Assembly: GCF_900083515.1 (NCBI RefSeq)
Contig: NZ_LT671858.1
Coordinates: forward strand, 1,530,001-1,562,000
Source: Cuniculiplasma divulgatum
GTDB lineage: Archaea; Thermoplasmatota; Thermoplasmata; Thermoplasmatales; Thermoplasmataceae
DNA: 32,000 nt
Reading direction: 5' to 3'
Shown here: positions 3,403 through 32,000 of the stretch, one piece after another
Position numbering within the stretch: the stretch's first letter is position 1
How the letters are laid out: each line of letters opens with the position of its first letter
The notes under the pieces: generated by a model
Database searches by the model: none
Seen by the model: only the letters and a program-made list of their open reading frames with translations
What the model was told of the DNA's origin: nothing
Made by a program: the position numbers and the translations under genes

Positions 3403-3482
3403 ATTTTATAATTCCTTCATGGTATATATATGTGATCTCATTGGAATGATAATTTATTTACACAATCACCCTATTTGTGTGT

Positions 3483-13674: not shown

Positions 13675-14268
13675 TCATAGGCTTTGAGAAGAAAGGTTAT
13701 TTCTGACTGACATGTTTCTGAAATGTAACCATATTAGAATTGCACCATTAATCACGTCTATAAGGTATGAAACTTCCTCAAGATATATATCGAAAGCGAG
13801 GGATGCTGATGCTGACACAAATATTGCAATTGCAAAGTATATAATGGGAAAGGTGCAACATGCCCCCGTTGTTATTGTTGAGGCAAAAACTGAGAATGAT
13901 AGTTTCATCACATGCTTCCTTTTACTGCTCAGTGCCAACTGTTTAAACACATCCATTAGGGTAAGAAAAATGGCATAGCTCAAAAAAATTGTAAGTATTA
14001 CCGGAAATATAGGAAGCGAAATTTCGAAATGATATGTTGGGTACCAGTAAAATCCGCTGAACCCTAATAACATATGGATGTTATTGGACCAAACCAAAAA
14101 CATGATTCTATGGTTAATTCCATTGCTGATTGCCCCATACAAACTGCCCCTGTAATAGTCAAAAAAACCAGCTGAAAAGGCATCCATAACCCAGAGGCCT
14201 ATTGATATCAGCAGTGCCAGAAGCGATGGTATCCGGAAAGATTTAGTTGAATGGTTGCTGGAATGCAT
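13675..14268 (-). CDS. polytopic membrane protein with an intramembrane vicinal Cys pair, last gene of the merA operon
   Basis: 197 aa, 5-6 hydrophobic helices, TTGACCTFPIIYFAIAIF. It starts 26 nt after the merA stop on the same strand. Confidence 0.6.
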   Translation of the reverse strand: MHSSNHSTKSFRIPSLLALLISIGLWVMDAFSAGFFDYYRGSLYGAISNGINHRIMFLVWSNNIHMLLGFSGFYWYPTYHFEISLPIFPVILTIFLSYAIFLTLMDVFKQLALSSKRKHVMKLSFSVFASTITTGACCTFPIIYFAIAIFVSASASLAFDIYLEEVSYLIDVINGAILIWLHFRNMSVRNNLSSQSL

Positions 14269-14294
14269 TTATATTATCCCAAATGATGTGCTGT

Positions 14295-15740
14295 CTATTC
14301 AACACAGCACGCCATCTTTGAAAGATCCCTTATGAAGGATTGGGCAGCAAGTTTTATTCCCTCTGAAAATGAAGGGAATATATGGCTCGTTGCAATTATA
14401 TCATCGATGGTATAACCGTTCCTGACAGCGTAAGCACCCTCGGTTATGATATCTGTTGCGTTTGGGGCCATTATGTGCATACCTACAATTCTGTTGTCAT
14501 TTGGATCCACTGTAATCTTTATGACACCTTCAGTTTCGCCCATTATGCTTGCCTTCGTCAGGTTTTCAAGTGAAAATACCCTGCATGAACATGATCCGTT
14601 CTTCTTTGAGAACTCGTTTTCTGTCATTCCAACCCCTGCAATCTGCGGGCTTGTAAATACTGCCCATGTGGAGGAGTCATAATCAATCGTAAGATCTTCA
14701 CCAAACATGTTGTTCACTGCTATAACGCCCTCCCTTGCTGCCAGAGTTTCAAGAAACATCTTTTTGGAAACGCAGTCCCCTGCCGCATATATACCAGGCG
14801 TGGATGTCTTCATTTTTTCAGAAGTCACTATTTGCCCCCTTGAATCGACCTCAACGCCCGCGGACTTGAGATTCAGATATTGTGTGTTTGCATGCCTTCC
14901 AGTTGCAACTATGATCTCCTGGACTTCTATTTTTTCCTTTCCATTATGCGTTATAATATCAATTGATTTTCCATTCCCGGATCTGTTCACTGAACCGATT
15001 CTTGCCCCCAGGTGGAACTTCATTCCTTCCTTTTCCAGGAACCTCTTCATTGCCGAACTTATCTCTGGTTCTGTTTGTGGTAGAAGTGAATCCATTGCCT
15101 CAATCACTGTTATCTTTGAGCCGAAATGCATGAGAGCCTGACCTATTTCCAGTCCTATGGCTCCTCCGCCTATGATGGCAACTGACTCAGGCATTTCATT
15201 GAGTTCCCATATGGTGTCGCTGGTTAAGAATCCTGTTTCCTTCAATCCTTCAATATTCGGTACACTAGGGGATGAACCTGTTGCAATGAGAATGTTAGAT
15301 CCTGTGACCATAGAAATTTCATTCCCGTCAGAATCCGATACCAAGATGGTCTTCCTGTCGACGAATCTCCCAAGACCGTTGAAAAGTTTTACATTGCTGT
15401 AGTTTTCAATCACCTGAGCATATTTTGTGTCTCTTGCATGTGTAACGTATGATCTCAGGCCTTCCATCACCTCTGAGAAGTTATGTTTCACCTGAGTGGG
15501 GTATATGCCGGACATTCTGGGATGATTAGGTCTGAAAACTGAATGGGATGCCTCAAGCAGATATTTTGATGGGACACATCCCACGTTGACGCATGTACCT
15601 CCCAATGATCCCGTGCCTATCATGGCAATTGTCATCTCGCCATTGCTAAGTTCCGAGGCTTTGATTGCAGCTGAAAAAGAAGCTGCACCCCTTCCAAGTA
15701 TTACAAGATCAAATTTCTGTATCTCGCTCTTCAAGTTCAT
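14295..15740 (-). CDS. merA: mercuric reductase (core MerA without a fused NmerA domain)
   Basis: Redox-active GGTCVNVGCVPSK. FAD and NAD(P) GxGxxG motifs. C-terminal FSEGIKLAAQSFIRDLSKMACCVE carries the MerA-specific vicinal Cys pair. Confidence 0.9.
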   Translation of the reverse strand: MNLKSEIQKFDLVILGRGAASFSAAIKASELSNGEMTIAMIGTGSLGGTCVNVGCVPSKYLLEASHSVFRPNHPRMSGIYPTQVKHNFSEVMEGLRSYVTHARDTKYAQVIENYSNVKLFNGLGRFVDRKTILVSDSDGNEISMVTGSNILIATGSSPSVPNIEGLKETGFLTSDTIWELNEMPESVAIIGGGAIGLEIGQALMHFGSKITVIEAMDSLLPQTEPEISSAMKRFLEKEGMKFHLGARIGSVNRSGNGKSIDIITHNGKEKIEVQEIIVATGRHANTQYLNLKSAGVEVDSRGQIVTSEKMKTSTPGIYAAGDCVSKKMFLETLAAREGVIAVNNMFGEDLTIDYDSSTWAVFTSPQIAGVGMTENEFSKKNGSCSCRVFSLENLTKASIMGETEGVIKITVDPNDNRIVGMHIMAPNATDIITEGAYAVRNGYTIDDIIATSHIFPSFSEGIKLAAQSFIRDLSKMACCVE

Positions 15741-15747
15741 TCGCCTT

Positions 15748-15996
15748 TTACTGTTCCATGAGCGTTGCCTTGTAGTGTGATGGCTTTTCGAATACCTTGT
15801 TTTTAAGAAGTCCTTCTGGGCTTACCTTTGTGGGATCGAACTCAACCTCTCCAATGCCATCTTTCAGGGATACCTTCACATCTCTGACGCCTTCCTGATT
15901 CTTTAGGCCACGGCTAACTGTTCTTACGCAGTCATCACAGGTCATTCCATATATCCTCAGTTTTACTTTTCTTTCTTCCATAATTATACATAACAT
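15748..15996 (-). CDS. heavy-metal-associated (HMA) domain metallochaperone (MerP/CopZ-like)
   Basis: GMTCDDC metal-binding loop. About 75-82 aa, and the true start is possibly MEERK at 15981. A 7-nt gap separates it from merA. Confidence 0.85.
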   Translation of the reverse strand: MLCIIMEERKVKLRIYGMTCDDCVRTVSRGLKNQEGVRDVKVSLKDGIGEVEFDPTKVSPEGLLKNKVFEKPSHYKATLMEQ

Positions 15997-16214
15997 TCGT
16001 GTATTAAAGTTGGAAAGTAAATTATTGTTTACCTATCGAAATGAAGATGACTCACTATGCGAAATAATTTTTATACTGAATATGATTCTTCTCCATAATA
16101 TTGAAATATTTCAATCCTTGTTGATTCTACAAGAATTGAAAGCCATAATTCCTTATTTTTCATACATATTAACATGTAAATTTCAGAAGCATTTATGATC
16201 AGTTATGTGAAAAA

Positions 16215-16306
16215 ATGCAATTATAATGCAATTTTGATGCAAATAAAATGAAACATTAATGCAATGGTAAAAAAAGAAATGCAACATTGATGCAATTAAA
16301 ATGCAG
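16215..16306. repeat. 11-bp phased tandem array of ATGCAA
   Basis: ATGCAA/ATGCAG at 16215, 16226, 16237, 16259, 16279, 16290 and 16301, with degenerate ATGAAA at 16248. Spacings are 11/11/(11)/11/20/11/11. Confidence 0.8.
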
Positions 16307-16446
16307 ACAATTATAACGTAATATTACCAAAGTTAAAGTGTAAAATGCTCAAGATTGAATAAGCATCCATGATTTGCTTGTGACATTATTTGGTTATTAG
16401 ATTCATTTTTGATAATCTGCTCCACCAGAATTTGGAACACTTTTCA

Positions 16447-17322
16447 TCAATTCTCATCTAGTGTCACCTCAACTTCTTTCTTTTCGAATCTGTTCCTGAA
16501 TGAAGGATCATTCAGGAACTTCCTCCTGAACTCCCTTGGGGGAAGATAATCGATGGATGAATGCAGGCCGCATTCATTGTAATCTGTGAATGCCTTTTCT
16601 ATCTTTATGGAAGCTTTATGAAAGTCTCTCAATTCATTAGGCCAGATATAGTCAGTCTTGATTGAGTTATGGAATGATTCAATATCTCCATTATCTTCCG
16701 GAGTGTGTTTCTGTATATACTCAAGATTGATCCCAAGTAGTTTCATGGCACTCCTGAACTCCCTGGATATATACTGGGGGCCATTGTCTGTTCTCAGTAC
16801 CAGGCCTTCTGATACTGATCCATTGAATGCCAGTAGAACAGCATTCTCCACAGAACGTATGGCATCCCTTGCCATACATGACCTGGAATAATGATATCCC
16901 TGCCATTCCTTGGTGAAAGTGTCCTTGATGCACATCAGATAGGTCATTCCCGATTCGGTGGGAATGTAAGTGATGTCAGTTTCCCAGAGCTGATCCGGAC
17001 CATGGGGATGGAAGAGATTCCTTTTCTTCGTTTTCACTCTGTGTTTCGATGCAGGAAGGTTCAGGTTGTTATCCTTAAGAATCTTCCTGACTGTCTTCTG
17101 GTTCACTTCTGTACCAGAATTACGAAGAACTGCCCACACTCTCCTGTATCCGTATGTTGTCCTCTCTGATGCAATGTCCTTGATCCTTTCCTTGATTGAT
17201 GGATCAAGCCTCTGAATATTCCTCTCTGTAGATTTATAATAATATCCGGATAGTGATATTCCGGATGTCCTTGAGATATTCCTCAAGGACATCTCCTGTT
17301 TTAGATCTTCCACAACCATCAT
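16447..17322 (-). CDS. IS3-family transposase OrfB (rve integrase core, DDE)
   Basis: WETDITYIPT (D), LRTDNGPQYIS (D) and PEDNGDIESFHNSIK (E), followed by a C-terminal LPPREF motif. Confidence 0.85.
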   Translation of the reverse strand: MMVVEDLKQEMSLRNISRTSGISLSGYYYKSTERNIQRLDPSIKERIKDIASERTTYGYRRVWAVLRNSGTEVNQKTVRKILKDNNLNLPASKHRVKTKKRNLFHPHGPDQLWETDITYIPTESGMTYLMCIKDTFTKEWQGYHYSRSCMARDAIRSVENAVLLAFNGSVSEGLVLRTDNGPQYISREFRSAMKLLGINLEYIQKHTPEDNGDIESFHNSIKTDYIWPNELRDFHKASIKIEKAFTDYNECGLHSSIDYLPPREFRRKFLNDPSFRNRFEKKEVEVTLDEN

Positions 17323-17323
17323 T

Positions 17324-17593
17324 TTATCCTCTTGATCGTTTTTTAAAAGCGTCTATGACCAGTGACTGATCTCCTATGATCTTCTTCAGATCCTCGATCT
17401 CCTCATCCCTCGAATCAGAATTCCTTCTCTGAGACAGTGCTGACTTCCCTCCAAGTATGAACTGTTCCTTCCACTTGCTTAACTGAACAGGATATATGCC
17501 ATGCCTGCGGCATATTTCAGCCTGTGTCACATTCTCGGAAAAGGATTCCATTACGATCTGGAACTTCTCTTCAGCCGAATATTTTGATTTCAT
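17324..17593 (-). CDS. IS3-family transposase OrfA (HTH_Tnp_1)
   Basis: YSAEEKFQIVMES...VTQAEICRRHGIYPVQLSKWKEQF is the IS3/IS911 OrfA signature. It ends 1 nt before the orfB ATG. Confidence 0.85.
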   Translation of the reverse strand: MKSKYSAEEKFQIVMESFSENVTQAEICRRHGIYPVQLSKWKEQFILGGKSALSQRRNSDSRDEEIEDLKKIIGDQSLVIDAFKKRSRG

Positions 17594-17701
17594 GAAAAAA
17601 CCTTTATGATTTGATAAACTGCTATTTGCATGCTCTCCATGTATCTGTTCTTCTCTATAATATTATTATCATAGTGTTCCAGTTCTATGATGGTGCAGGT
17701 C

Positions 17702-17840
17702 ATGAGCTATCAATCTTTTAAGAAAGATAGAAGAAAAAAAGAATAATTCTGGAAGTAATCGGTGAAATTGTTCTATTTTCTTTTGAAGAAGACAAGTTTT
17801 AACATTTGTGCGGAAAATAGAGAGGAAATTAGAAAACCTC
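17702..17840 (+). repeat. copy A of a ~140-150 bp IS5-tail repeat
   Basis: Aligns by eye at roughly 85-90% identity with 21702-21852. Long shared blocks include ATAATTCTGGAAGTAA and TTGAAGAAGACAAGTTTTAACATTTGTG. It begins immediately at the IS3 right end. Confidence 0.8.
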
Positions 17841-17945
17841 TAAACTTATCCAAACACACTATTTAATATATTACACCCTAACTACAACGAACCGTTTTAT
17901 ATTGGAAATTAATTGCTAATGCATAGATAAAAGTTTTGGGGGGTT

Positions 17946-18329
17946 GTGGAAATGAAAGAAGCTCACGCGGCTGATGAGAGAGGGTATGTCATAATGCCTG
18001 AAAACCAGAGCATTAACGTAGAAAGATCTGAAGATATTCTGAATTTACTCGGCAAGAAATATTCACTGCTCATTATTGGTATTTTGGGAATTGATACTAC
18101 GATGAAATTTAATGATATAAAAAAAATCCTTGGATGCCCATCGTCGAATATTCTGACAGCACGACTTAGGGAGATGAATAGTGCAGAAATTATTGATAGA
18201 AATGTTGTACAATCCTCCCCGATTTCAGTTATGTACTCGCTAACTAAGAAAGGTATAGAACTGAGAAAGAATCTAATTCCACTTTTCAGCTGGATTGAAT
18301 ATAATTGCCCTAGAACGAAGTTAAAATAA
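17946..18329 (+). CDS. HxlR-family winged-helix transcriptional regulator
   Basis: LLGKKYSLLIIGIL...MKFNDIKKILGCPSSNILTARLREMNSAEIIDRN...VMYSLTKKGIELRKNLIPLFSW matches the HxlR (DUF24) pattern. The start is GTG 17946 or ATG 17952. Confidence 0.7.
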   Translation: MEMKEAHAADERGYVIMPENQSINVERSEDILNLLGKKYSLLIIGILGIDTTMKFNDIKKILGCPSSNILTARLREMNSAEIIDRNVVQSSPISVMYSLTKKGIELRKNLIPLFSWIEYNCPRTKLK

Positions 18330-18331
18330 AT

Positions 18332-18367
18332 AAACTAGGTATACTTTATAAACTAGGTATACTTTAC
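18332..18367 (+). promoter_or_regulatory. tandem 18-bp direct repeat (candidate operator) upstream of a TATA-like box for the second mer operon
   Basis: AAACTAGGTATACTTTAT followed by AAACTAGGTATACTTTAC, each with a GTATAC palindrome core. The CTATATATTA box at 18377-18386 lies ~25-30 nt before the ATG at 18409, which suggests a leaderless or short-leader mRNA. Confidence 0.5.
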
Positions 18368-18408
18368 TTAACAATTCTATATATTAGGTTGATTCACATC
18401 TATGAAAT

Positions 18409-18642
18409 ATGACACAAAAAAAGGTTGAGCTAAAGATATTCGGAATGACGAGCAACGAATGTGAAGGGCTTGTCTCTAAGGGACTCAAAACGAGAGATGG
18501 TGTAAAAGATGCGGTTATCGATTTTAAGCTTGGACTTGGCACGGTGGAGATAGATGACACAAAAGTTTCTCCAGAAGACTTGATTCGGCTTCCGGTGTTC
18601 ACCCAGTCGCATTACCGGGCACAGATAAGGAAGGTGGAGTGA
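18409..18642 (+). CDS. HMA-fold protein with a degenerate metal-binding loop (GMTSNEC)
   Basis: It is alignable along its whole length to the 15748-15996 product, but the first Cys of CxxC is Ser (AGC). Confidence 0.8.
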   Translation: MTQKKVELKIFGMTSNECEGLVSKGLKTRDGVKDAVIDFKLGLGTVEIDDTKVSPEDLIRLPVFTQSHYRAQIRKVE

Positions 18643-18648
18643 TTTTAA

Positions 18649-20082
18649 ATGTCTAAAGAATTTGATTTAATTATATTCGGTAACGGAGTCGCTGCATTCT
18701 CTGCGGCAGTAAAGGCTTCTGAGGTAACTTCCCAAGGGGCCAGCATTGCGATGATAGGCACAGGGCCACTTGGAGGAACTTGCATGAATGTGGGATGTGC
18801 CCCCTCAAAATACCTTCTGGAAGCCTCTCACCAGATATACCTTCCCGGGCATCCAAAGATGAGAGGACTTCCGTCTACAAAGATTGAACACGATTTCTCT
18901 TCTATCATGGAAGGTCTTAGATCATACGTGGACCATACACGTAAGACAAAATTTGTCGACATGTTGCAGAATTACCCAAATGTAACTGTGTACGATGGAC
19001 TGGCCAGGTTCGTGGATAGTAGAACTGTTCAGATAACAGATCAGGACGGAAAAGTTAAAGATGAGATCACCGCGCCGAATGTACTGATTGCAACAGGCTC
19101 ACACCCAACCGTTCCGAATATTGAGGGTCTCATGGAAACTGGTTTCCTTACAAGTGACAGTATCTGGAACATTGGCAGCTTGCCGGAAAGCATAGCGATA
19201 ATAGGTGGGGGGGCTATAGGACTTGAGATTGGACAGGCTTTGTTGCACTTTGGTTCCAAGGTAACCATAATAGAGGCTTTGGATATAATTCTTCCACAGA
19301 GTGAACCTGAGATAGGTCAGGCGCTTATGCTCAGACTTCAGCAGGAAGGTATGAATTTCTATCTCGGAGCCAGAGTCAGTTCTGTGGGGAAAGAGTCAAA
19401 CGGACATAAATATATTGAGTTCATAACACACAAGGGAAATGAGAAAATAGAAGTCTCTGAGATAATAGTAGCCACCGGCCGTCAACCAAACACTTCAAAC
19501 CTGAATCTGGAAGCCGCAGGGGTAAAAACTGATGGTAGAGGTCTCATTGTAACCGATGCGAGGATGAAGACAACATCGAGTGGAATTTATGCCGCTGGAG
19601 ATTGTGTTTCAAAGACGATGTTCCTGGAGACCCTTGCAGTAAGGGAAAGCATCGTTGCAGTAGGCAACATGTTCGGCGAGAGTGCTGAGATCAATTACAT
19701 GTTCGCGGCATGGGCCGTATTCACGTACCCACAGGTAGCAGGTGTCGGGATGACCGAGAAGGAATTCTCCAAACTAAAAGGATCATGCTCGTGCAGGACA
19801 TCTTCATTGGCGAACACAATCTATGCCAGCATAACTGGAGAAACCGATGGAATCATAAAAATCACAATAGATCCGGAAACAAATAAGATTGTTGGAATGC
19901 ACATTTTTGCACCCAATGCAACAGATCTCATAATTGAGGGTGCATACTCCGTGAGGTTGGGACTCACATATGATGATATAGTTGCATCAGGACGTATATT
20001 TCCGTCATATTCTGAAGGAGTAAAGCTAGGGGCTCAATTGTTCATCAGGGATGTTTCTAAAGCTTCGTGCTATGTTGAATAA
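18649..20082 (+). CDS. MerA-like pyridine nucleotide-disulfide oxidoreductase paralog lacking one C-terminal cysteine
   Basis: GGTCMNVGCAPSK is intact and identity to the merA product is roughly two-thirds by eye. The C-terminus is SKASCYVE instead of SKMACCVE (TAT vs TGT). Confidence 0.85.
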   Translation: MSKEFDLIIFGNGVAAFSAAVKASEVTSQGASIAMIGTGPLGGTCMNVGCAPSKYLLEASHQIYLPGHPKMRGLPSTKIEHDFSSIMEGLRSYVDHTRKTKFVDMLQNYPNVTVYDGLARFVDSRTVQITDQDGKVKDEITAPNVLIATGSHPTVPNIEGLMETGFLTSDSIWNIGSLPESIAIIGGGAIGLEIGQALLHFGSKVTIIEALDIILPQSEPEIGQALMLRLQQEGMNFYLGARVSSVGKESNGHKYIEFITHKGNEKIEVSEIIVATGRQPNTSNLNLEAAGVKTDGRGLIVTDARMKTTSSGIYAAGDCVSKTMFLETLAVRESIVAVGNMFGESAEINYMFAAWAVFTYPQVAGVGMTEKEFSKLKGSCSCRTSSLANTIYASITGETDGIIKITIDPETNKIVGMHIFAPNATDLIIEGAYSVRLGLTYDDIVASGRIFPSYSEGVKLGAQLFIRDVSKASCYVE

Positions 20083-24720: not shown

Positions 24721-25096
24721 AATTTCCACAGTTCCACTCTTTCACTCCCATTAGAAATTTTGACAATCAGGCTCAAACGCATGTTTTCTCTTTTTGAATT
24801 CAATCTTTACGTAAATTTTATTATATTATTAATCAATGGCTCTTCCGGATTTCAGAAAAACTAGTTAGTATGGAAATCAAAATAATATTATATTTACAAA
24901 CTAATATTTTTAATACATTTACTTGGTTTTAGCACCTGCAACGATTAATACTATAATCTATTGCTCAATTTCATAGAAAAATATCTTAAAAAATTAAAAG
25001 TAATAAATCATTGAATATTACCTAAAAAAAATAAGTAAATCTAATATTTGAATTACCAACATCCAAGATCGATTTCCTGACATTCGTAGTGCAAAA

Positions 25097-26338
25097 CTAA
25101 TCCTTTCTCATAAGAATGATGTATTCCTTAGTCATAGTATCATCAAGTTTTCCCACCTTGTTAGAAGGGCTGTTCTTTGAGGGCATTCTCTTATTTGGTA
25201 TGCCTCTTGTAAAAGTCTCAATATTTTTAAACCCATTCTTTTCAAAAAAGCATACGATGGATTTGTCAGTTGGAAGCAACACACCTGCAACCTTCCTGTT
25301 GGCTACAACATAACATGCATATCCACCACTCTTTATGGTCTTTGACACATTATTGATTGAACTCCTAAGATCTGAATAAAAGGAATACACTTCCAAAGAT
25401 CTAACATGGTTTATTCCTTCTACTTCCCTAAGACTTCTATCCAGATCCTCACATCCAAAACTAACGGGCTTTGATTTCTTTCCGCCCATTGATGCTGTAT
25501 CAACGTTACTCTTCAGGATCCCAAGCCATTCTGAAGAGAGTTTTGAATATTGACCATAGGCAACAGTGGTATGCGAATCTCCATAGGGCGGTGAAGTGAT
25601 TACGATATCTATTGAATTTTCCCTTATTTTGCTCTTTGGGATTTGATTTACAGTATTGGCAAGATATATCTTTGAGATAGGCTGATAATTGAGTTCAGCC
25701 ATCTTCCTGTGGAATGATTCATATCCTTTGAAATTCCTGACTAATTTTTCCTTCATGATGGCAAACGGATCTGGATTATAGTCTTTCAGCTTCTCTTTGT
25801 TATATCTATATAGCTTGAATTCACCTTTCCTGGTATTGGAGCTTTCCCTTATGGCCTCACTGGCAGTTGCTTCAAAGAATTTCCTGATCCTTTTGTCCTT
25901 GATCCTGCTGATATATCTTAATATCAGGCCTATGCCCTTTACTGCATTGGGCTTAAACCAGAATTCAAGGTTTTCTTTATCTATAATCTTTGGCGTTCCC
26001 TTTGGAAACATTGTAAATTCAACAAAACGGTCTATTTCGTTGCTTAAATCAATGGGTTCCATATGATATTCTGTCTTTGCCTCTGATATTAGTTTAGCAA
26101 GCGGGTTAATGTCGGTTCCAATTACGTTTAATCCTGCCAATAATCCTTCTACCAAGGAGCTGCCAGAACCACAGTAAGGATCAAATAATAAATTCCTCTC
26201 TTTCTCTTCCAGCATTCTTATTATGTTTCTTGGAATTTGTGGGATCATCCTTGCTGGGTAATCGTGGTATATATGGGTGTATTCCCTAGTATTCTCATTA
26301 AGAAATGTCCAGTCCCTTTCCTTGATCTCTTCTATCAT
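25097..26338 (-). CDS. DNA methyltransferase (N4-cytosine/N6-adenine class, SPPY motif)
   Basis: Motif I is FDPYCGSGSSLVEG near the N-terminus. Motif IV, IVITSPPYGD, lies ~180 aa later. It overlaps the upstream endonuclease gene by 4 nt. Confidence 0.85.
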   Translation of the reverse strand: MIEEIKERDWTFLNENTREYTHIYHDYPARMIPQIPRNIIRMLEEKERNLLFDPYCGSGSSLVEGLLAGLNVIGTDINPLAKLISEAKTEYHMEPIDLSNEIDRFVEFTMFPKGTPKIIDKENLEFWFKPNAVKGIGLILRYISRIKDKRIRKFFEATASEAIRESSNTRKGEFKLYRYNKEKLKDYNPDPFAIMKEKLVRNFKGYESFHRKMAELNYQPISKIYLANTVNQIPKSKIRENSIDIVITSPPYGDSHTTVAYGQYSKLSSEWLGILKSNVDTASMGGKKSKPVSFGCEDLDRSLREVEGINHVRSLEVYSFYSDLRSSINNVSKTIKSGGYACYVVANRKVAGVLLPTDKSIVCFFEKNGFKNIETFTRGIPNKRMPSKNSPSNKVGKLDDTMTKEYIILMRKD

Positions 26339-27072
26339 AGCTTCCCCATTTTTGGTATTATCCTATCTCTATATGCAAAGCAGTCTTGAATGTTTCCCTC
26401 AAGCACTCTAAATGCTGTGCCATGATCATGAGGTTTTCCTTCATTTTTGCTTCCCTTTGGGTAGATTCCAAGCCTTAGCTCAACCTTTACAATGCCATTG
26501 CTGATAAGGGTTATAAATCTTTCAAATGAAAAGCCCATCAAAACCCATGCCTCATTGTAGTTGAATTCCTCATTCATCTTACTTCCCCTTTTATCAGCCT
26601 TCACAAGCAAAACTCTATACATTTTTAATTCAAAGGATTTCTTAAGTGTTTCATAATCCCATCCGCCATAGATCTTTCCATGAATATTCACAATGTCAAT
26701 TCTGTCAGGAGTAACAGCAAGCTTTAATGAAGGAATGCCTTTGATCTCAGTTGTTCTATTTCCATAAAGATCCACATGGAGATTCTTCTTTGTCGGATCA
26801 TTAACACTCTGGTAGCCGTAATCATCCAGCAGATTTTTTATGGACTCGCCAGGTTTAGGGCTCTTTGTAAAGAGGGTTATCATTGATGATGAATCTTTCC
26901 GTATGGATTTTAATTCCACCTTCTCTCCATTTGGCCCTGGAAAGTTGTTTTCTTGTATTCCCAATAGATCTTCAAGTGTTTTGCCTATGCCAGTATCATG
27001 GGTTCGATTTGAATGGATCCATTGGTTGCTGATTTCATTTAGTCGATCAACCAATTCGTTAAAGCCTTTCAT
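26335..27072 (-). CDS. type II restriction endonuclease, MvaI/BcnI family
   Basis: 245 aa. TGIGKTLEDLLG, ELKSIRK..SSMITLFTKSP and KPHDHGTAFRV match remembered conserved blocks of MvaI and BcnI (~240 aa enzymes). Confidence 0.7.
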   Translation of the reverse strand: MKGFNELVDRLNEISNQWIHSNRTHDTGIGKTLEDLLGIQENNFPGPNGEKVELKSIRKDSSSMITLFTKSPKPGESIKNLLDDYGYQSVNDPTKKNLHVDLYGNRTTEIKGIPSLKLAVTPDRIDIVNIHGKIYGGWDYETLKKSFELKMYRVLLVKADKRGSKMNEEFNYNEAWVLMGFSFERFITLISNGIVKVELRLGIYPKGSKNEGKPHDHGTAFRVLEGNIQDCFAYRDRIIPKMGKL

Positions 27073-27193
27073 TTGGTTGTGTAATGGATAAATGTATAAT
27101 ATAATTACTAGAGGTTAGATATTAGCATAGATGCTCATATGCTTTAATACCCCAAATCTTATAGGTTATAATAGCAAAAGAAAATAGTGTGAA

Positions 27194-27646
27194 GTGAGTA
27201 AAATCGGTTTTTCCAATAGGCAGATTACTGGCAACATTGGGCTGTATTACATTTGTTACAAGCTCTCGAGAATGGGATGGAACGTTCTTCCAACATCTAG
27301 AAATGCAAAGGGCATAGATATTATAGCTTATGGAAAGCAAGGCGAAAAGATGCTTATGATTCAAACAAAAGGATATACTAAGAAAGCCGCCGTGGGACCA
27401 TTTAAAGATGTCAGCGAAATTATTGCTGATTTTTATATTGTATCTTGGAATGTTTACACATCGCCCGTTACTTATATATTGACGAAGGAAGAACTGAAAT
27501 CGGTCTTGTCCAAACACAAAGGGGTGTATTGGGCAGAATCTAAGGATTATGCCAAGGACGACTTTCTCCAAAGATGGGATAAAATTGGATATGGATTTGT
27601 AAAAAATGAGGAAATTGAGTATATTACCAAACTTGATCAGGACTAA
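27194..27646 (+). CDS. PD-(D/E)xK-fold nuclease-like protein (Hjc/PDDEXK_5-like)
   Basis: GNIGLYYICYKLSRMGWNVLP..AKGIDIIAY...MLMIQTKG fits the G-x-x-G...D...(E/Q)xK layout. It is divergent from the R-M operon. Confidence 0.5.
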   Translation: MSKIGFSNRQITGNIGLYYICYKLSRMGWNVLPTSRNAKGIDIIAYGKQGEKMLMIQTKGYTKKAAVGPFKDVSEIIADFYIVSWNVYTSPVTYILTKEELKSVLSKHKGVYWAESKDYAKDDFLQRWDKIGYGFVKNEEIEYITKLDQD

Positions 27647-28282
27647 TCAAGTAAATGTTTGATTTTACGATCATTTTTACAATGAAATATCACTTTTTAA
27701 AACAACAATCGCCGTCATATCCCAAAGCAGAAACAGAAAAACCTAGCTGCTTGATAGAAAAACCAGAGATATCAGTCTGGGTTCACTCACCACCTCTAAT
27801 GAATTCTTCATTTTAATCTCTCTATAAATTCCGAGGTAGTCATTCCTATTATTTGCAAATAGATAAATATGGTAAACACCGAGGGATGAATTATGCGAAG
27901 TTACATTATTTAAAAATATACACAGTCTGTTGCGCATTTGCCTTTAAAGATAAGCGTGAACTCTTAGCAGGATTTGCATTTTGTGGTTCAGGCTCCAATA
28001 TACTCTTTTAAGAACTATATTTCCAACGTCAAATGTCTGGAAGTCAGGATAGTCGCTATTCACGTTTGTGCCAAGCATATCTATTTCCTTCTAACTCTTT
28101 TATATTGATTCCTATAACTTCCTGATGCCATTGCCTGTATGAACACCAGCTTCAATCTGGCATTAGTTGAAATTGCCAGATAATGTGCTTACAAATTGCA
28201 CTGAATATATTTTCAAACTCCCATAACAATTCTTAAATTATTTTTTTTATCCAAATCTTCATGTCATGGAAATGATGATCCT

Positions 28283-28820
28283 TGTCACTGTAACCCTGTC
28301 CACTTTTTCAATATTGATTTTTTCATTCATAATTTTTCATCTTAGTTAATTCTACCATGTTATTGATATGAGTATAGGGTTGTCACACCTGTCACACCCA
28401 TAATTTTTTTTCTTAATTTTCTAATCTTCAACTTTTTGATCTTAGTTAATTCTACTAAGACGTATGACTATTTTAGGGGGGTGTCACCCCTATAATGCTT
28501 GTCATATATAGTCGCTTTTTAGGTGTGACAGTGTGACAGGTGTGACAGTGTGACAGCACTGCCCAAATCTTACGTGATTTACTGACTATTTAAGCTGTCA
28601 CACCCATGACAAGGGGCTGTCACATGTGACAGGGGTGTGACAGCCTTTTAGACAAAAAAGATGTTCTGACCTGTCACATGTGACAGGGGGTGTGACAGGT
28701 AGTGTTCTAAAAAGGTATATTTTACAGCATTTACAAGCTGTCACACTGTGACAGGTAGTGTGACAGGGGGTGTGACAAGGTTATAGGTTGAAGCATGTCT
28801 GACATTCAAATGGCATGACA
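28283..28820. repeat. iteron field of >20 TGTGACAG / CTGTCACA copies with three palindrome+G-run modules
   Basis: See the first finding. Four tandem copies lie at 28524-28556. Palindromes lie at 28617-28632, 28671-28686 and 28738-28754. A 100-bp duplication is marked by ATCTTAGTTAATTCTAC at 28339 and 28439. Confidence 0.85.
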
Positions 28821-29353
28821 GTAGTGAAATATTTCATCCACTAATTAACAGTCTTCTTTCACATTTTATGATATGAGCAAGTCTTTATTGTGCACAGTGT
28901 CTATATTCAAGGTATATGTGTCTTAATAGCATATGCTATTTCCTATTCAGTGATGCATTTATAATTTCATGTATGGAGTACCATTTTGTTACGATTTCCG
29001 TGTTTGCAAAAATAATACCATGGAAATCCTTTTCATGATCTCATGGATACAAAATCCATGATCATTTACCACACTGTGATAAATGATTTCACAGTAAGCT
29101 TGTTCCCTATTTGTTAACAAACAGAAATTTCAGACAGGATTAATTGTGAAATAGATCAATCCAGTATTTTCTGATGCTTACATGGAAGGCAAATTCAGTG
29201 TAAATATTGAGATATTTTAAAGATTTTCTATCACTTATTTGTGTCATTATGAAATCTTTCTGATCAAAATCTCACCTTCAACTTCATAAAATCCAATATG
29301 TTCTGATTCTGAAATATTTATTCCAAATTCCAGTTCCTTAAATAAGTTTATAT

Positions 29354-29863
29354 TTAGCGATGGAGAGTTGAATATTTAACAAGCACATCTTCAGTAAGAG
29401 GGTTTGCTCCATCACAGTTTCGTGCGAGTTCCCCATTATTATCTTTATTTGCAGACCAAAGATATACCATGGTTCCCTGATCTTGGACATATTTGACTAC
29501 TGGAATGAAATCAGTATCTCCAGATACAAGAATGATATTTTGTATATTTGATTTTGAGAGTGTGATCATGTCCACTGCAAGCTGGATATCTACCTGTTTC
29601 TGTACAAAATGAAATCCTACCTTTTATTTCTCTCCACGCCCAACTTTAAAATTAGCCAGTTTTTCTAACCTGTCAAGGAGGACTTCATTTGATTTGAACT
29701 CACAATCATACACATAAGTTCTAAACAAAGAAGAATTATGTTTCTGGCATAATAAATCACAAAATGATTTATAATCAAGTTTGAAGGTGCCTTCCATGTG
29801 ATTCAGCACTTCCTTTTTCAAATAATAGTTGTCAATAAGTATTGCTGCCCTTTCTTCACTCAT
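29354..29863 (-). pseudogene. NYN-domain (LabA/DUF88-like, PIN-related) protein gene interrupted by one in-frame TAA
   Basis: AAILIDNYYL...(N-terminal part) and VDIQLAVDMI...ILVSGDTDFIPVVKYVQDQG (C-terminal part) are in the same frame. They are separated only by TAA at 29624-29626. Confidence 0.65.
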
Positions 29864-29958: not shown

Positions 29959-32000
29959 ATTTCAATAGAGCCATGATTATTCAATCATGGAAACTAGTGG
30001 GCACTCTCGATATATGAAAGGATGGATTGCATGCTTCAATAGAGCCATGATTATTCAATCATGGAAACCAAGAAGTGGAGGGACATGTCGCCGCAGCAAA
30101 GAAAGGCTTCAATAGAGCCATGATTATTCAATCATGGAAACTCTTTAACTTTTCAGGCTTCAAGTACGGGATACAACGGCTTCAATAGAGCCATGATTAT
30201 TCAATCATGGAAACCACCAGTAGCATTCTTTGTTACTGTTGAAGGGAAATCGCTTCAATAGAGCCATGATTATTCAATCATGGAAACCTTCACTCAGGGA
30301 GGGGACATTAAGGTCTCTGTCCTGCTTCAATAGAGCCATGATTATTCAATCATGGAAACACCCCAGACCTCTTCGCTTTCTTTCTGTGAGAGATTGCTTC
30401 AATAGAGCCATGATTATTCAATCATGGAAACGGCGTCAGATTCATCCAATGCCATCACCAGATCTGTGGCTTCAATAGAGCCATGATTATTCAATCATGG
30501 AAACTTTCTCCACCAACCTGCAACCAGAAGGAGGAATTTGTGCTTCAATAGAGCCATGATTATTCAATCATGGAAACAAGTCATTGTTATTGTTCCTATC
30601 CCAGAAACTCCTCCGCTTCAATAGAGCCATGATTATTCAATCATGGAAACGTTGTTTTACCGGCTTTTGAGAAAAATCCAGACATGGGGCTTCAATAGAG
30701 CCATGATTATTCAATCATGGAAACTATAGTTTTTTTTCAAAATATTTTAGTAGTAGTAGTGCTTCAATAGAGCCATGATTATTCAATCATGGAAACTCAT
30801 ATCACTGATGACAAAATATGTCAATCGAATGACGCTTCAATAGAGCCATGATTATTCAATCATGGAAACAATGGAAATTTGATGGTGATTTTTGTTGTAA
30901 ACAGTTTGCTTCAATAGAGCCATGATTATTCAATCATGGAAACAAAGAGGACTATGCCAAATACTATTATCCAGTTTGCAGCGCTTCAATAGAGCCATGA
31001 TTATTCAATCATGGAAACATAAAGGAATTCTTCCTTGAAGATGGTTGGATTGTTAAGCTTCAATAGAGCCATGATTATTCAATCATGGAAACGTGAATTT
31101 TCTTTTATTTCAGGATATCGATGTATTGCTTCAATAGAGCCATGATTATTCAATCATGGAAACGGTTGCTGCACATTGAGGTATGTATGAAGACCTTGTG
31201 CTTCAATAGAGCCATGATTATTCAATCATGGAAACTCTTATCATGTGAGCATCAGCCATACTGTAAGATTGAGCTTCAATAGAGCCATGATTATTCAATC
31301 ATGGAAACATAGTTGATATTTACCAAATGTAAGGGGATTGAAAACTGCTTCAATAGAGCCATGATTATTCAATCATGGAAACTTTGTAATGAAGTCATGC
31401 CATCGTATCAGGTAAGGGCTTCAATAGAGCCATGATTATTCAATCATGGAAACAACATAGGGAAAACAAGCGATTCTATTGATTTATATAGCTTCAATAG
31501 AGCCATGATTATTCAATCATGGAAACTTGGGCTCTATGGAAACACTGGCACAATGCATATAATGCTTCAATAGAGCCATGATTATTCAATCATGGAAACC
31601 CGGACTAAGTACCACATACAAAGACCCAATAACCGTGCTTCAATAGAGCCATGATTATTCAATCATGGAAACTAAGGAATTATCTTGAGTATTTTATCCA
31701 GATTTTCTTCGCTTCAATAGAGCCATGATTATTCAATCATGGAAACCACCTCCAAGGTTTTCTGGGTTGGCTCCCTTTTACTGGCTTCAATAGAGCCATG
31801 ATTATTCAATCATGGAAACATCGTGAATGATTACATACACTGAATCTGTACCAGATGCTTCAATAGAGCCATGATTATTCAATCATGGAAACCCTGTATC
31901 GGCAGGATTTACTGAGGATGATACTGAAGCTTCAATAGAGCCATGATTATTCAATCATGGAAACAGTTACTGGTAAGAATGTCAATGCAATCGTCAATTC
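29959..32000 (-). CRISPR. CRISPR array, 28 repeats of 36 bp in the window, continuing past the window end
   Basis: Plus-strand repeat is GCTTCAATAGAGCCATGATTATTCAATCATGGAAAC. There are 27 complete spacers of 35-39 bp, all different. The first repeat (29959) is degenerate (AT for GC). The minus strand reads GTTTCCATG...CTATTGAAGC, the canonical transcribed orientation. Confidence 0.95.

What the first reader, a model, noticed from the sequence alone, without database searches (positions are those of the whole stretch)
28283..28820. Dense TGTGACAG/CTGTCACA iteron field with ORB-like palindrome+G-run modules in a 1.7-kb ORF-free gap
**ORF-free gap.** Region 27647-29353 has no ORF of 60 aa or more apart from one dubious 64-aa frame.

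**Motif density.** The octamer TGTGACAG or its complement occurs more than 20 times in about 500 bp.
- Two CTGTCACA-oriented copies lie at 28380-28397.
- Four head-to-tail GTGTGACAG copies lie at 28524-28556.
- Three modules each consist of a perfect dyad, a G3-5 run and a further TGTGACAG. The dyads are CTGTCACATGTGACAG at 28617 and 28671, and CTGTCACACTGTGACAG at 28738.

**Flanking organisation.**
- Copies of opposite orientation flank a very AT-rich tract at about 28399-28470.
- A 100-bp unit marked by ATCTTAGTTAATTCTAC is duplicated at 28339 and 28439.

**Interpretation.** Dyad plus G-string elements in inverted orientation around an AT-rich unwinding region is the layout of archaeal origin recognition boxes. 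It is also the layout of plasmid or virus iteron origins and centromere-like sites. No orc1/cdc6, rep or par gene is visible in the window. This could therefore be an orphan or novel origin, the relic of an integrated element next to the defence locus, or a high-capacity binding array for an unknown DNA-binding protein.
Basis: partly seen in the sequence, partly recalled or inferred. Interest (0 to 1): 0.8.

Follow-up and report, generated by a model that had tools for sequence, protein, structure and literature searches.

The report
Orphan iteron-type replication origin relic
A 500-bp stretch in the chromosome of the acid-loving archaeon Cuniculiplasma divulgatum is packed with copies of one 8-base word, laid out like the replication start sites of plasmids and viruses, but the gene for the protein that should bind it is missing, so it is most likely a leftover or hijackable origin sitting in a defence-gene island.

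Summary
The repeat field is real. TGTGACAG or its complement occurs 15 times exactly, not more than 20, all within 28389-28766 (0.8 expected in 32 kb). About seven degenerate copies add to this.

The window comes from Cuniculiplasma divulgatum PM4 (Thermoplasmatales). The field lies in a decaying defence island between an MvaI/BcnI restriction-modification cassette and the trailer end of a CRISPR array.

The same octamer forms opposed tandem sets around AT-rich tracts in 34 viral contigs and in many bacterial genomes. In 15 of those 34 it starts within 100 bp of the 3' end of a primase-helicase or helicase gene. That is the SaPI/PICI/P4 origin layout. In haloarchaeal-type integrative elements the iteron word co-varies with the upstream protein.

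No initiator, orc1/cdc6 or par gene, and no remnant of one, is present in the window or in any of the relatives' loci. There is no ORB consensus, and the G-runs are variable linkers.

Close strains carry 0, 10, 15, 16 or 20 exact copies. Cores are 95-98% conserved, while spacers are at shuffle level.

Best reading: an orphan iteron-type origin or initiator-binding array of mobile-element descent. It is a new member of a known kind and of moderate interest.

The parts
27647..28282 (.). Left non-coding flank of the field. It always travels with the field in Cuniculiplasma strains.
   Evidence: There is no ORF of 65 aa or more and no Pfam hit. Divergence from L257 is 2.9% (26 mismatches in 899 non-core positions) and from L258 1.3% (12 in 901). 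The segment 27787-28187 occurs inverted in contigs L260 and L263. The flank is absent after the homologous 154-aa gene in the distant relative L281.
28283..28305 (-). Degenerate outermost copies (CTTGTCAC, CCTGTCCAC).
   Evidence: Read. TGTCAC hit at 28283.
28298..28375 (.). AT-rich tract 1 with a 23-nt box TTTTTCATCTTAGTTAATTCTAC (28333-28355).
   Evidence: The tract is 76.9% AT. The box is repeated at 28433, 22/23 identical.
28380..28397 (-). Left iteron pair: TTGTCACA plus CTGTCACA at 9-bp spacing.
   Evidence: It forms a perfect 17-nt inverted repeat with 28531-28547 (I1).
28399..28475 (.). AT-rich tract 2 with the second copy of the 23-nt box (28433-28455). This is the candidate unwinding region.
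   Evidence: The tract is 79.2% AT against 62.6% for the window. It is flanked by iterons of opposite orientation.
28476..28490 (.). Near-palindromic degenerate site GGGGGGTGTCACCCC.
   Evidence: D5.
28524..28556 (+). Four contiguous exact TGTGACAG copies, with start-to-start spacing of 8, 9 and 8 bp.
   Evidence: L258 has three copies here. In L257 and L258 the first copy reads TGCGACAG.
28595..28643 (.). Supermodule A: a minus-strand copy, a degenerate copy, the 16-bp dyad CTGTCACATGTGACAG, GGG, then a plus-strand copy.
   Evidence: (D10, I5).
28671..28698 (.). Supermodule B: the dyad CTGTCACATGTGACAG, GGGG, then a plus-strand copy.
   Evidence: (D10).
28738..28778 (.). Supermodule C: the dyad CTGTCACA-C-TGTGACAG, GTAG, a plus-strand copy, GGGG, then TGTGACAA.
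   Evidence: L257 carries extra modules of this type, giving 20 exact copies.
28779..29353 (.). Right non-coding flank. It contains a terminator-like hairpin (29061-29087, minus strand) and, at about 29250-29360 on the minus strand, the C-terminal remnant of an AbrB/MazE-type gene.
   Evidence: Divergence is 6-11% between strains. Stop codons occur in all frames in four genomes. The AbrB gene is intact in L257 (12291-12452) and in L261.

Best explanation
**What it is.** The field is a cluster of binding sites (iterons, core (G)G-TGTGACAG) for a sequence-specific replication initiator of a plasmid- or virus-like element. In other words, it is an iteron-type origin. The left half (28283-28556) has opposed iteron sets around two 77-79% AT tracts and is the likely melting region. 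The right half (28595-28778) is a tandem array of dyad-plus-direct-copy supermodules. This array resembles the extra iteron arrays that such replicons use as replication enhancers or copy-control sites.

**Proposed mechanism (inferred).**
- Monomers of an initiator bind each octamer at 8-12-bp spacing through a winged-helix-type DNA-binding domain.
- They oligomerise on either side of the AT-rich tract and melt it.
- They then load themselves or a partner helicase.

**Current state.** The initiator gene is not in cis. The array sits as an orphan in a decaying defence island of Cuniculiplasma divulgatum, between a restriction-modification cassette and a CRISPR trailer. It is probably left over from an integrated replicon. 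The sites are still intact enough to be bound in trans if a cognate initiator enters the cell.

**Shown.**
- The array exists and is far denser than chance allows.
- The cores are constrained relative to the spacers.
- The array is conserved across strains, with varying copy number.
- Elsewhere, the same word and layout are associated with helicase/primase genes.
- Iteron and protein co-vary in archaeal elements.

**Inferred.** Protein binding, melting and origin activity at this locus.
For: **The array itself.**
- There are 15 exact copies in 378 bp against 0.8 expected in the whole window.
- Within the module region the cores are 98% (window) and 95% (L257) identical to the consensus. The spacers between paralogous modules are 42-56% and 31-72% identical, which is the level of shuffled sequence. 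The words are therefore maintained rather than merely copied recently.

**The same word elsewhere.**
- A scan for three tandem TGTGACAG returned 85 viral loci. In 34 of them (GC 31-70%) there are at least 4 copies in both orientations within 600 bp, typically flanking an AT-rich tract.
- In 15 of these 34 the cluster begins within 100 bp of the 3' end of a replication gene. These genes are VapE-like/Prim-Pol, D5_N/DUF5906/Pox_D5 primase-helicases, or a phrog_62 helicase.
- The same adjacency occurs in bacterial genomes L179 and L191.

**Controls.**
- A composition- and symmetry-matched octamer, TGAGTCAG, gave 1 such cluster in 23 loci.
- The octamer TGTGAACG, which resembles my recollection of the P4 iteron, gave 10 clusters in 17 loci. 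Nine of them lie 4-85 bp 3' of D5_N-type genes.

**Archaeal covariation.** In integrative elements ordered Dam, a 417-aa protein, a ~300-bp gap, a UvrD helicase and an integrase, the gap keeps one layout. The 9-mer changes with the protein: CCTGTCACA, CCTGTCCCA (56% protein identity) and CCCGTTACA (47% identity).

**Literature.**
- SaPI origins have 6-12 iterons immediately downstream of rep, split around an AT-rich centre and pointing in opposite directions (PMC9371898).
- PICI origins always have two iteron sets flanking an AT-rich region (PMC6092414).
- The pRN1 origin lies 3' of its primase-helicase gene (PMC4234260).

**Population data.** At least five Cuniculiplasma lineages carry the field, with 10, 15, 16 or 20 exact copies.
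Against: **No initiator gene.**
- No initiator gene or remnant is in the window: Pfam scans of 29 ORFs, tblastn and HMM searches.
- None is within 10 kb in relatives L257, L258, L261, L263 or L275.
- The defining '3' of rep' feature is therefore not met.

**Polarity.** The main AT-rich tract is flanked as CTGTCACA...TGTGACAG. This is the reverse of the polarity seen in most viral loci, although L049 shows both.

**Decay and instability.**
- The surrounding island is decaying: a split NYN gene, a truncated AbrB gene, and a restriction endonuclease and 150-aa gene that are often truncated in metagenomes.
- One strain has a collapsed field without exact copies (L261).
- The array may therefore be functionless now.

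**Weak comparative power.**
- Comparison of orthologous sequences has no power: 1 of 46 core positions changed against 26 of 899 flank positions.
- No related Thermoplasmatales plasmid or virus carrying this word was found.
- There are no replication data.
Confidence: 0.55

Rival explanations
1. The field is a centromere-like partition site or an operator array. The tandem supermodules, each with a 16-bp dyad, would be bound by a dimeric ribbon-helix-helix, AbrB or wHTH protein, as in F sopC, R1 parC or the omega-heptad arrays. The function would be segregation or repression, not initiation.
For: - The right half is a tandem array of supermodules recurring at 54-67-bp intervals (dyad starts 28617, 28671, 28738), each containing a perfect dyad.
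- Contiguous 8-9-bp repeats resemble ribbon-helix-helix heptad arrays (my own knowledge).
- In relatives L257 and L261 an intact AbrB/MazE-type DNA-binding gene lies about 450 bp from the field.
- In L261 a Csa3-like CARF-HTH gene ends about 180 bp from the collapsed field.
Against: - No parA, parM or tubZ gene is in the window or in the relatives.
- The AbrB gene is truncated in the window and in L258, yet the field persists there.
- The field lies downstream of the AbrB gene's 3' end, not in its promoter.
- In other genomes the same word sits 3' of helicase/primase genes around AT-rich tracts, not beside par genes.
Confidence: 0.15
2. The field is an Orc1/Cdc6-dependent origin with ORB-like dyad-plus-G-string boxes. 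It would be either a secondary chromosomal origin or the origin of an integrated pTA1/pPO1-type Thermoplasmatales plasmid.
For: - The layout is dyad plus G-run with inverted copies around AT-rich DNA.
- The two characterised Thermoplasmatales plasmids, pTA1 and pPO1, encode Orc1/Cdc6-like initiators beside AT-rich, repeat-rich intergenic regions. pPO1 also carries a restriction-modification system (PMC3177234).
Against: - No orc1/cdc6 gene is in the window or in the relatives.
- No mini-ORB consensus lies in the gap: 4 window hits with 2 mismatches, none in 27647-29353, against 2.8 expected.
- The G-run is not conserved: GGGG, GTAG and GTGG interchange.
- About 17 sites at 8-12-bp spacing are incompatible with Orc1 footprints of about 30 bp (my own knowledge of the Orc1-ORB structures).
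- The identical octamer arrays occur in bacteria and phages.
- None of the pPO1 repeats contains the word (Table 2).
Confidence: 0.08
3. The field is a functionless minisatellite. The repeat array arose and expands or contracts by slippage and unequal crossing-over at a recombination hot spot between defence modules, with no protein partner.
For: - Exact copy number is 0, 10, 15, 16 or 20 among strains that differ by 1-11% in the flanks.
- Different evolutionary distances on the two sides (2.9% against 9.6%) mark a recombination junction.
- The neighbouring genes are decaying.
Against: - Cores are 95-98% conserved, while the spacers between paralogous modules are at shuffle level. Plain duplication of modules does not predict this.
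- Both orientations, perfect dyads and flanking AT-rich tracts reproduce an architecture found next to replication genes in unrelated genomes with the very same word.
Confidence: 0.12

Closest known systems
SaPI/PICI replication origins (self-loading Rep or Pri-Rep helicases)
   Same: Both have short iterons (5-8 bp) in two sets of opposite orientation around an AT-rich centre and many copies (6-12 in SaPIs) (PMC9371898, PMC6092414). Viral loci carrying the identical octamer show exactly this layout immediately 3' of primase-helicase genes.
   Different: Here no rep or pri-rep gene lies upstream or anywhere in the window. The host is an archaeon. An additional tandem array of dyad-containing supermodules is present. 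The polarity around the main AT tract is reversed.
Satellite phage P4 ori/crr with the alpha primase-helicase
   Same: Both use an octamer iteron. From memory, P4 uses TGTTCACC, bound by the C-terminal winged helix of alpha, with a second iteron-bearing tandem repeat (crr) required in cis. The winged-helix domain is documented in PMC2777425 and ori/alpha in PMC6092414. The window likewise has an origin-like half and a tandem-module half built from one octamer. My control octamer TGTGAACG turned up next to D5_N/P4-type genes.
   Different: The word is different, no alpha-like gene is present, and the two halves are contiguous rather than kilobases apart.
pRN1-family archaeal plasmids (ORF904 prim-pol/SF3 helicase/winged helix)
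   Same: This is an archaeal precedent for an origin lying just 3' of the replication gene and recognised by the protein's own winged-helix domain (PMC4234260, PMC2777425).
   Different: The pRN1 origin is a 100-nt stem-loop without iterons. No ORF904-like gene is present here.
Archaeal origin recognition boxes (ORB / mini-ORB, Orc1/Cdc6)
   Same: Both have dyad elements in inverted orientation around an AT-rich unwinding element.
   Different: No ORB consensus, no adjacent orc1/cdc6, a variable 'G-string', far more and far denser sites, and the same word is used in bacteria.
Iteron copy-control and incompatibility arrays, and plasmid centromeres (P1 incA, F sopC, R1 parC; from my own knowledge)
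   Same: These are arrays of initiator or partition-protein sites without a melting function. They act by titration, handcuffing or segregation. They are tandem units, each with a dyad.
   Different: No cognate rep or par genes are present, and the location is chromosomal, in a defence island.
Haloarchaeal-type integrative elements with a 417-aa protein of unknown fold
   Same: In L115 and L269 the identical word CCTGTCACA occurs in opposed or tandem sets in the gap 3' of the gene. The iteron co-varies with the protein.
   Different: These loci are about 65% GC and have a fixed 7-8-site layout next to UvrD helicase, DnaG-like and integrase genes. No homologue of the protein is in the window or in Cuniculiplasma loci.

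Membership tests
Iteron-type origin of a self-loading helicase/primase-helicase replicon (SaPI/PICI/P4 type) | Multiple short iterons present in both orientations | tested here: met
   There are 15 exact and about 7 degenerate copies: 10 plus-strand and 5 minus-strand exact.
Iteron-type origin of a self-loading helicase/primase-helicase replicon (SaPI/PICI/P4 type) | AT-rich melting region between opposed iteron sets | tested here: met
   28399-28475 is 79.2% AT and lies between the minus-strand pair (28380-28397) and the plus-strand quartet (28524-28556). The polarity is opposite to most viral examples.
Iteron-type origin of a self-loading helicase/primase-helicase replicon (SaPI/PICI/P4 type) | Origin lies immediately 3' of the rep / pri-rep gene | tested here: not met
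   The nearest genes are a 150-aa PD-(D/E)xK-like protein and a split NYN gene. No VapE, D5_N, DUF5906 or Prim-Pol signal was found by Pfam, tblastn or HMM in the window, and none is in the gene lists of the relatives' loci.
Iteron-type origin of a self-loading helicase/primase-helicase replicon (SaPI/PICI/P4 type) | Initiator binds the iterons and the fragment supports replication | not testable with these tools
   This needs EMSA, pull-down, or replication and incompatibility assays.
Archaeal ORB origin (Orc1/Cdc6) | ORB / mini-ORB consensus sequence | tested here: not met
   TCCAGTGGAAAC with up to 2 mismatches gave 4 hits, none in 27647-29353, against 2.8 expected.
Archaeal ORB origin (Orc1/Cdc6) | Adjacent orc1/cdc6 gene | tested here: not met
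   No AAA+/Cdc6 domain is in any of the 29 scanned ORFs or in the gene lists of the relatives' loci.
Archaeal ORB origin (Orc1/Cdc6) | Conserved G-string next to the dyad | tested here: not met
   The linker is GGG or GGGG in some modules and GTAG or GTGG in paralogous and orthologous modules.
Plasmid centromere (parS/parC/sopC-like) | Tandem units each containing a dyad | tested here: met
   Three supermodules in the window and five to six in L257.
Plasmid centromere (parS/parC/sopC-like) | Adjacent partition ATPase and adaptor genes | tested here: not met
   No ParA, ParM, TubZ or ParB domains were found.
TGTGACAG iteron class (operational group defined here) | At least 4 exact TGTGACAG/CTGTCACA copies in both orientations within 600 bp, with tandem sets at 8-12-bp spacing | tested here: met
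   The window has 15 copies in 378 bp. The same criterion is met by 34 of 85 viral loci and by about 30 genome loci.

The most novel reading that the evidence does not exclude
**Claim.** The initiator-less iteron array has been domesticated as part of the defence island.

**Two possible modes.**
- Decoy: the array titrates or 'handcuffs' the replication initiator of an invading plasmid or virus that uses TGTGACAG iterons. This would be chromosomal incompatibility acting as immunity.
- Helper-fired origin: the array is fired in trans by the invader's initiator, which amplifies the adjacent CRISPR array and restriction-modification genes during infection.

**Consistent observations.**
- The cores are kept while the spacers drift.
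- Copy number varies from 10 to 20 between near-identical strains.
- The array is retained in at least five lineages while neighbouring genes decay.

None of this demonstrates the idea.
Probability: 0.1. Interest if true: 0.8.

Novelty: new member of a known kind. Interest (0 to 1): 0.45.

Why it matters
- **A testable origin for an under-studied group.** Replication origins and mobile-element replicons of Thermoplasmatales are almost unknown; only pTA1 and pPO1 have been described. A well-delimited, strain-variable iteron array in a cultured species (C. divulgatum PM4) gives a concrete DNA bait. It could be used to fish out the cognate initiator and, through it, the still unseen plasmids or viruses of these acid-mine archaea.
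- **A recurrent iteron word.** TGTGACAG recurs as an iteron next to at least four unrelated replication-protein families in bacteria, phages and archaea. In one archaeal family the word co-varies with a protein of unknown fold. That gives a handle on how origin specificity evolves.
- **Possible defence role.** If the array proves to act in trans from within a defence island, it would add 'origin decoys' to the defence repertoire.

Tried and rejected
**Similarity and family searches.**
- blastn of the 1.7-kb gap against PLSDB plasmids and INPHARED phages gave no match.
- Rfam and a tRNA scan of the window found nothing.
- A search for a decayed initiator found nothing. I used tblastn of all proteins neighbouring viral arrays, HMMs of the VapE-type and D5-type families, and an HMM of the 417-aa archaeal family against six-frame translations.
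- Small ORFs in the gap gave no credible Pfam hit.
- The right flank is not a decayed toxin gene: stops occur in all frames in four genomes.

**Pattern scans.**
- The dyad-plus-linker-plus-copy module pattern returned only 2 viral and 4 metagenome hits, all unrelated and 51-56% GC.
- The 18-mer dyad+GG gave no viral hit.
- The 17-nt box ATCTTAGTTAATTCTAC gave 5 chance hits with no further similarity.
It did not return the source genome.

**Tested hypotheses.**
- The 150-aa gene is not the cis-encoded binder. It is the third gene of the MvaI/BcnI cassette in a distant relative that has no gap and no repeats. It is truncated in strains that keep the field.
- A selection test on orthologous alignments lacked power. 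I replaced it with a core-versus-spacer comparison of paralogous modules.
- No att-like direct repeats were found around the island.

**Other dead ends.**
- CRISPR spacers against phages and plasmids gave nothing useful.
- A literature search for the bare octamer returned only noise.
- The AlphaFold model of the 417-aa family (pLDDT 73) had no PDB fold match with E below 0.01.
Full report
**Observation**

- The field is real and statistically extreme.
  - Exact TGTGACAG/CTGTCACA occurs 15 times, all between 28389 and 28766. The shuffle expectation is 0.79 for the whole 32-kb window.
  - With one mismatch allowed, two more true copies appear (28380, 28771). About five weaker copies can be read in the sequence.
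  - the tandem quartet at 28524-28556;
  - the 16-17-bp dyads at 28617, 28671 and 28738;
  - the left pair at 28380-28397.
- Two tracts are strongly AT-rich: 28298-28375 is 76.9% AT and 28399-28475 is 79.2% AT. The window average is 62.6%.
- The '100-bp unit' is an old duplication.
  - Its solid part is a 23-nt box.
  - Overall identity is 70/105, against 58 +/- 3 for shuffles.
- The gap 27647-29353 has no credible ORF, no Rfam family and no tRNA.

**Source organism and setting**

- Exact protein matches place the window in Cuniculiplasma divulgatum strain PM4 (Thermoplasmatales), which has a 1,938,699-bp chromosome.
  - This agrees with a full-length match of the M1 peptidase to Thermoplasma tricorn-interacting factor F3.
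- The region is a mosaic defence and mobile-element island. Reading left to right it contains:
  - MerA-like oxidoreductases, an IS3 transposase and DDE fragments;
  - one orphan CRISPR repeat at 24849-24877;
  - an MvaI/BcnI restriction-modification pair with a 150-aa PD-(D/E)xK-like third gene;
  - the 1.7-kb gap that holds the field;
  - a truncated AbrB/MazE-type gene;
  - a split NYN gene;
  - a CRISPR array of at least 28 repeats.
- Synteny with L258 shows that the trailer end of this array faces the field, because cas2 and cas4-cas1 lie beyond the far end.
- No orc1/cdc6, rep, primase-helicase or par gene is in the window.

**What the same word does elsewhere**

- I scanned IMG/VR for three tandem TGTGACAG copies and recovered 85 loci.
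  - In 34 of them, spanning 31-70% GC, at least 4 copies occur in both orientations within 600 bp. Typically these form tandem sets of 2-6 copies facing each other across an AT-rich tract.
  - All-against-all comparison of neighbouring ORFs found two large families whose 3' ends abut the clusters.
  - Pfam identifies them as VapE-like, with or without Prim-Pol/PriCT, and as D5_N/DUF5906/Pox_D5 primase-helicases.
  - A third type is a phrog_62 helicase.
  - In 15 of the 34 loci the distance from gene end to cluster is 100 bp or less.
- Bacterial genomes show the same arrangement, for example L179 and L191.
- This is the architecture described for three known systems:
  - SaPI origins have 6-12 iterons immediately downstream of rep, split around an AT-rich centre and oppositely oriented (PMC9371898);
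  - PICI origins have two iteron sets around an AT-rich region (PMC6092414);
  - the archaeal plasmid pRN1 has its origin 3' of the gene for its primase-helicase, which carries a C-terminal winged helix (PMC4234260, PMC2777425).

**Controls**

- A composition- and symmetry-matched octamer (TGAGTCAG) gave 23 loci, only one of which had an opposed cluster.
- A second control (TGTGAACG) turned out to resemble the P4 iteron core.
  - It gave 10 opposed clusters in 17 loci.
  - Nine of these lie 4-85 bp 3' of D5_N/P4-type genes.
- Two conclusions follow:
  - opposed octamer clusters are a specific signature of this replicon type;
  - the word varies within a protein family, as expected for initiator-iteron pairs.

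**An archaeal analogue with covariation**

- One archaeal hit is L115, a 67% GC MAG labelled Methanobacteriota. It has the word in the gap 3' of a protein without any Pfam or PHROG match.
- Homologues of this protein (24 clusters, about 420 aa) sit in integrative elements with a fixed gene order: Dam, the 417-aa protein, a ~300-bp gap, a UvrD helicase, a 430-aa DnaG_N-like protein and an integrase.
- The gap keeps one layout: a single inverted copy, three tandem 9-mers, a second single inverted copy, then two tandem 9-mers.
- The 9-mer changes with the protein:

| Loci | 9-mer | Identity to the L115 protein |
|---|---|---|
| L115, L269 | CCTGTCACA | 93-98% |
| L271, L272 | CCTGTCCCA | 56% |
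| L273, L274 | CCCGTTACA | 47% |

- This is the pattern expected if the upstream protein reads the repeats.
- The AlphaFold model of the protein (pLDDT 73) has no PDB fold match with E below 0.01.
- No homologue is present in the window or in Cuniculiplasma loci.

**Population comparison**

| Locus | Source | Exact copies | Notes |
|---|---|---|---|
| L001 | contig identical to the window | 15 | |
| L003 | MAG | 16 | |
| L258 | GCA_021797075.1 | 10 | same context as the window |
| L275 | contig from SRR30914513 | at least 7 | contig ends inside the field |
| L257 | CP133596.1 | 20 | extra supermodules; type III-A cas genes and a full CRISPR array on the left; an intact AbrB gene and an EcoRII restriction-modification system on the right |
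| L261 | ERZ27237492 | 0 | collapsed version with only degenerate remains, joined to the same right flank next to Csa3-like and CBASS genes |

- The two flanks have diverged from L257 to different degrees: 2.9% on the left and 9.6% on the right. This marks a recombination junction.
- A more distant relative (L281) has the same restriction-modification cassette with its 154-aa third gene. The next gene follows after 24 bp, with no gap and no repeats.
  - The 1.7-kb segment is therefore an insertion specific to the Cuniculiplasma lineage.
  - The 150-aa protein belongs to the restriction-modification cassette and is not the binder.
- Comparison of orthologous sequences lacks the power to test selection. 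Comparison of paralogous modules does not:
  - cores are 98% (window) and 95% (L257) identical to the consensus;
  - the spacers between modules are 42-56% and 31-72% identical, no better than shuffled sequence.
- The octamers have therefore been maintained while the rest drifted.

**Interpretation**

- The best-supported reading is an iteron-type origin, or initiator-binding array, of mobile-element descent that has lost its initiator gene in cis.
  - The left half looks like the melting module.
  - The right half looks like an accessory array of initiator sites.
- The ORB analogy fails on four counts:
  - the sequence does not match;
  - the 'G-string' is variable;
  - the site density is too high;
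  - the same word occurs in bacteria and phages.
- A partition or operator array and a functionless minisatellite remain possible. They fit the cross-genome association and the core-versus-spacer contrast less well.
- Three caveats remain:
  - the defining '3' of rep' feature is not met;
  - the polarity around the main AT tract is atypical;
  - nothing here demonstrates protein binding or firing.
- The most novel reading not excluded is that the orphan array works in trans from within the defence island, either as an initiator decoy or as a helper-fired amplifier.

**Verdict**

This is a real and well-delimited feature and a new member of a known kind. It is of moderate interest, mainly as bait for the unknown replicons of Thermoplasmatales and as an entry point to a recurrent iteron word.

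Noticed in passing
window 24849-24877: A single orphan CRISPR repeat (GATTTCAGAAAAACTAGTTAGTATGGAAATC). The same repeat forms a 17-unit array beside type III-A csm genes at the equivalent place in relative CP133596.1 (L257 7832-8990). The restriction-modification / iteron block is therefore bracketed by CRISPR material on both sides.
   Followed up: partly
window 29959-32000: A CRISPR array of at least 28 repeats of 36 nt (GCTTCAATAGAGCCATGATTATTCAATCATGGAAAC) that runs off the window. The first repeat is degenerate. In L258 the array is followed by cas2 and cas4-cas1 on the minus strand, so the leader is at the far end and the trailer faces the iteron field.
   Followed up: partly
window 29354-29863 (-): An NYN-domain gene split into two ORFs (29354-29575 and 29624-29863). 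It is also split in L258 and is probably a pseudogene.
   Followed up: no
window ~29250-29360 (-); L257 12291-12452; L261 ~3480-3650: The C-terminal remnant (...ISESEHIGFYEVEGEILIRKIS*) of a 53-aa AbrB/MazE-type antitoxin-like gene. The gene is intact in two related strains. No partner toxin ORF is present in any of them.
   Followed up: partly
window 27787-28187; L260, L263: Part of the left flank occurs in inverted orientation in two metagenome contigs. This is either a real inversion or fold-back polymorphism, or an assembly artefact.
   Followed up: no
window 25097-27646; L277-L281: The MvaI/BcnI endonuclease, its N4/N6 methylase and the 150-aa PD-(D/E)xK-like gene form a mobile cassette found in several different defence contexts (DndB/HATPase, Druantia, Kiwa-like KwaA). 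The endonuclease and the 150-aa gene occur as many truncated variants (63-137 aa) in metagenomes.
   Followed up: partly
L131, L138, L152, L159, L209 (Bacteroidales / Segatella copri genomes): A very regular 3x TGTGACAG, AT-rich tract (about 100-130 bp), 3x CTGTCACA. The elements lie in chromosomes and, where checked, have no adjacent helicase gene; in L209 the neighbour is a DUF6377 protein. They could be origins of small integrated elements or something else.
   Followed up: no
L242-L256 (viral contigs): The control octamer TGTGAACG forms opposed clusters 4-85 bp 3' of D5_N/P4-alpha-like primase-helicase genes in 9 of 10 cases. This is a second iteron word for the same protein family.
   Followed up: partly
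L115, L269-L274; proteins P0046-P0068: An uncharacterised ~420-aa protein family in GC-rich archaeal integrative elements. It has no Pfam or PHROG match and no PDB fold match. The 9-mer iterons in the gap 3' of the gene co-vary with the protein (CCTGTCACA / CCTGTCCCA / CCCGTTACA). It is a candidate new origin-binding initiator working with a UvrD-type helicase.
   Followed up: partly
window 29061-29087 (-): A 12-bp-stem hairpin followed by a T-run. It is conserved in L257, L258 and L261 and is probably the terminator of the AbrB-type gene. Its arms (CTGTGA...TCACAG) loosely resemble the iteron.
   Followed up: no
window 13675-20082: Two paralogous pyridine-nucleotide disulphide oxidoreductases (MerA-like), one with an HMA-domain partner and one with an HxlR regulator. 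They are separated by an IS3-family transposase (orfA/orfB, 16447-17593).
   Followed up: no
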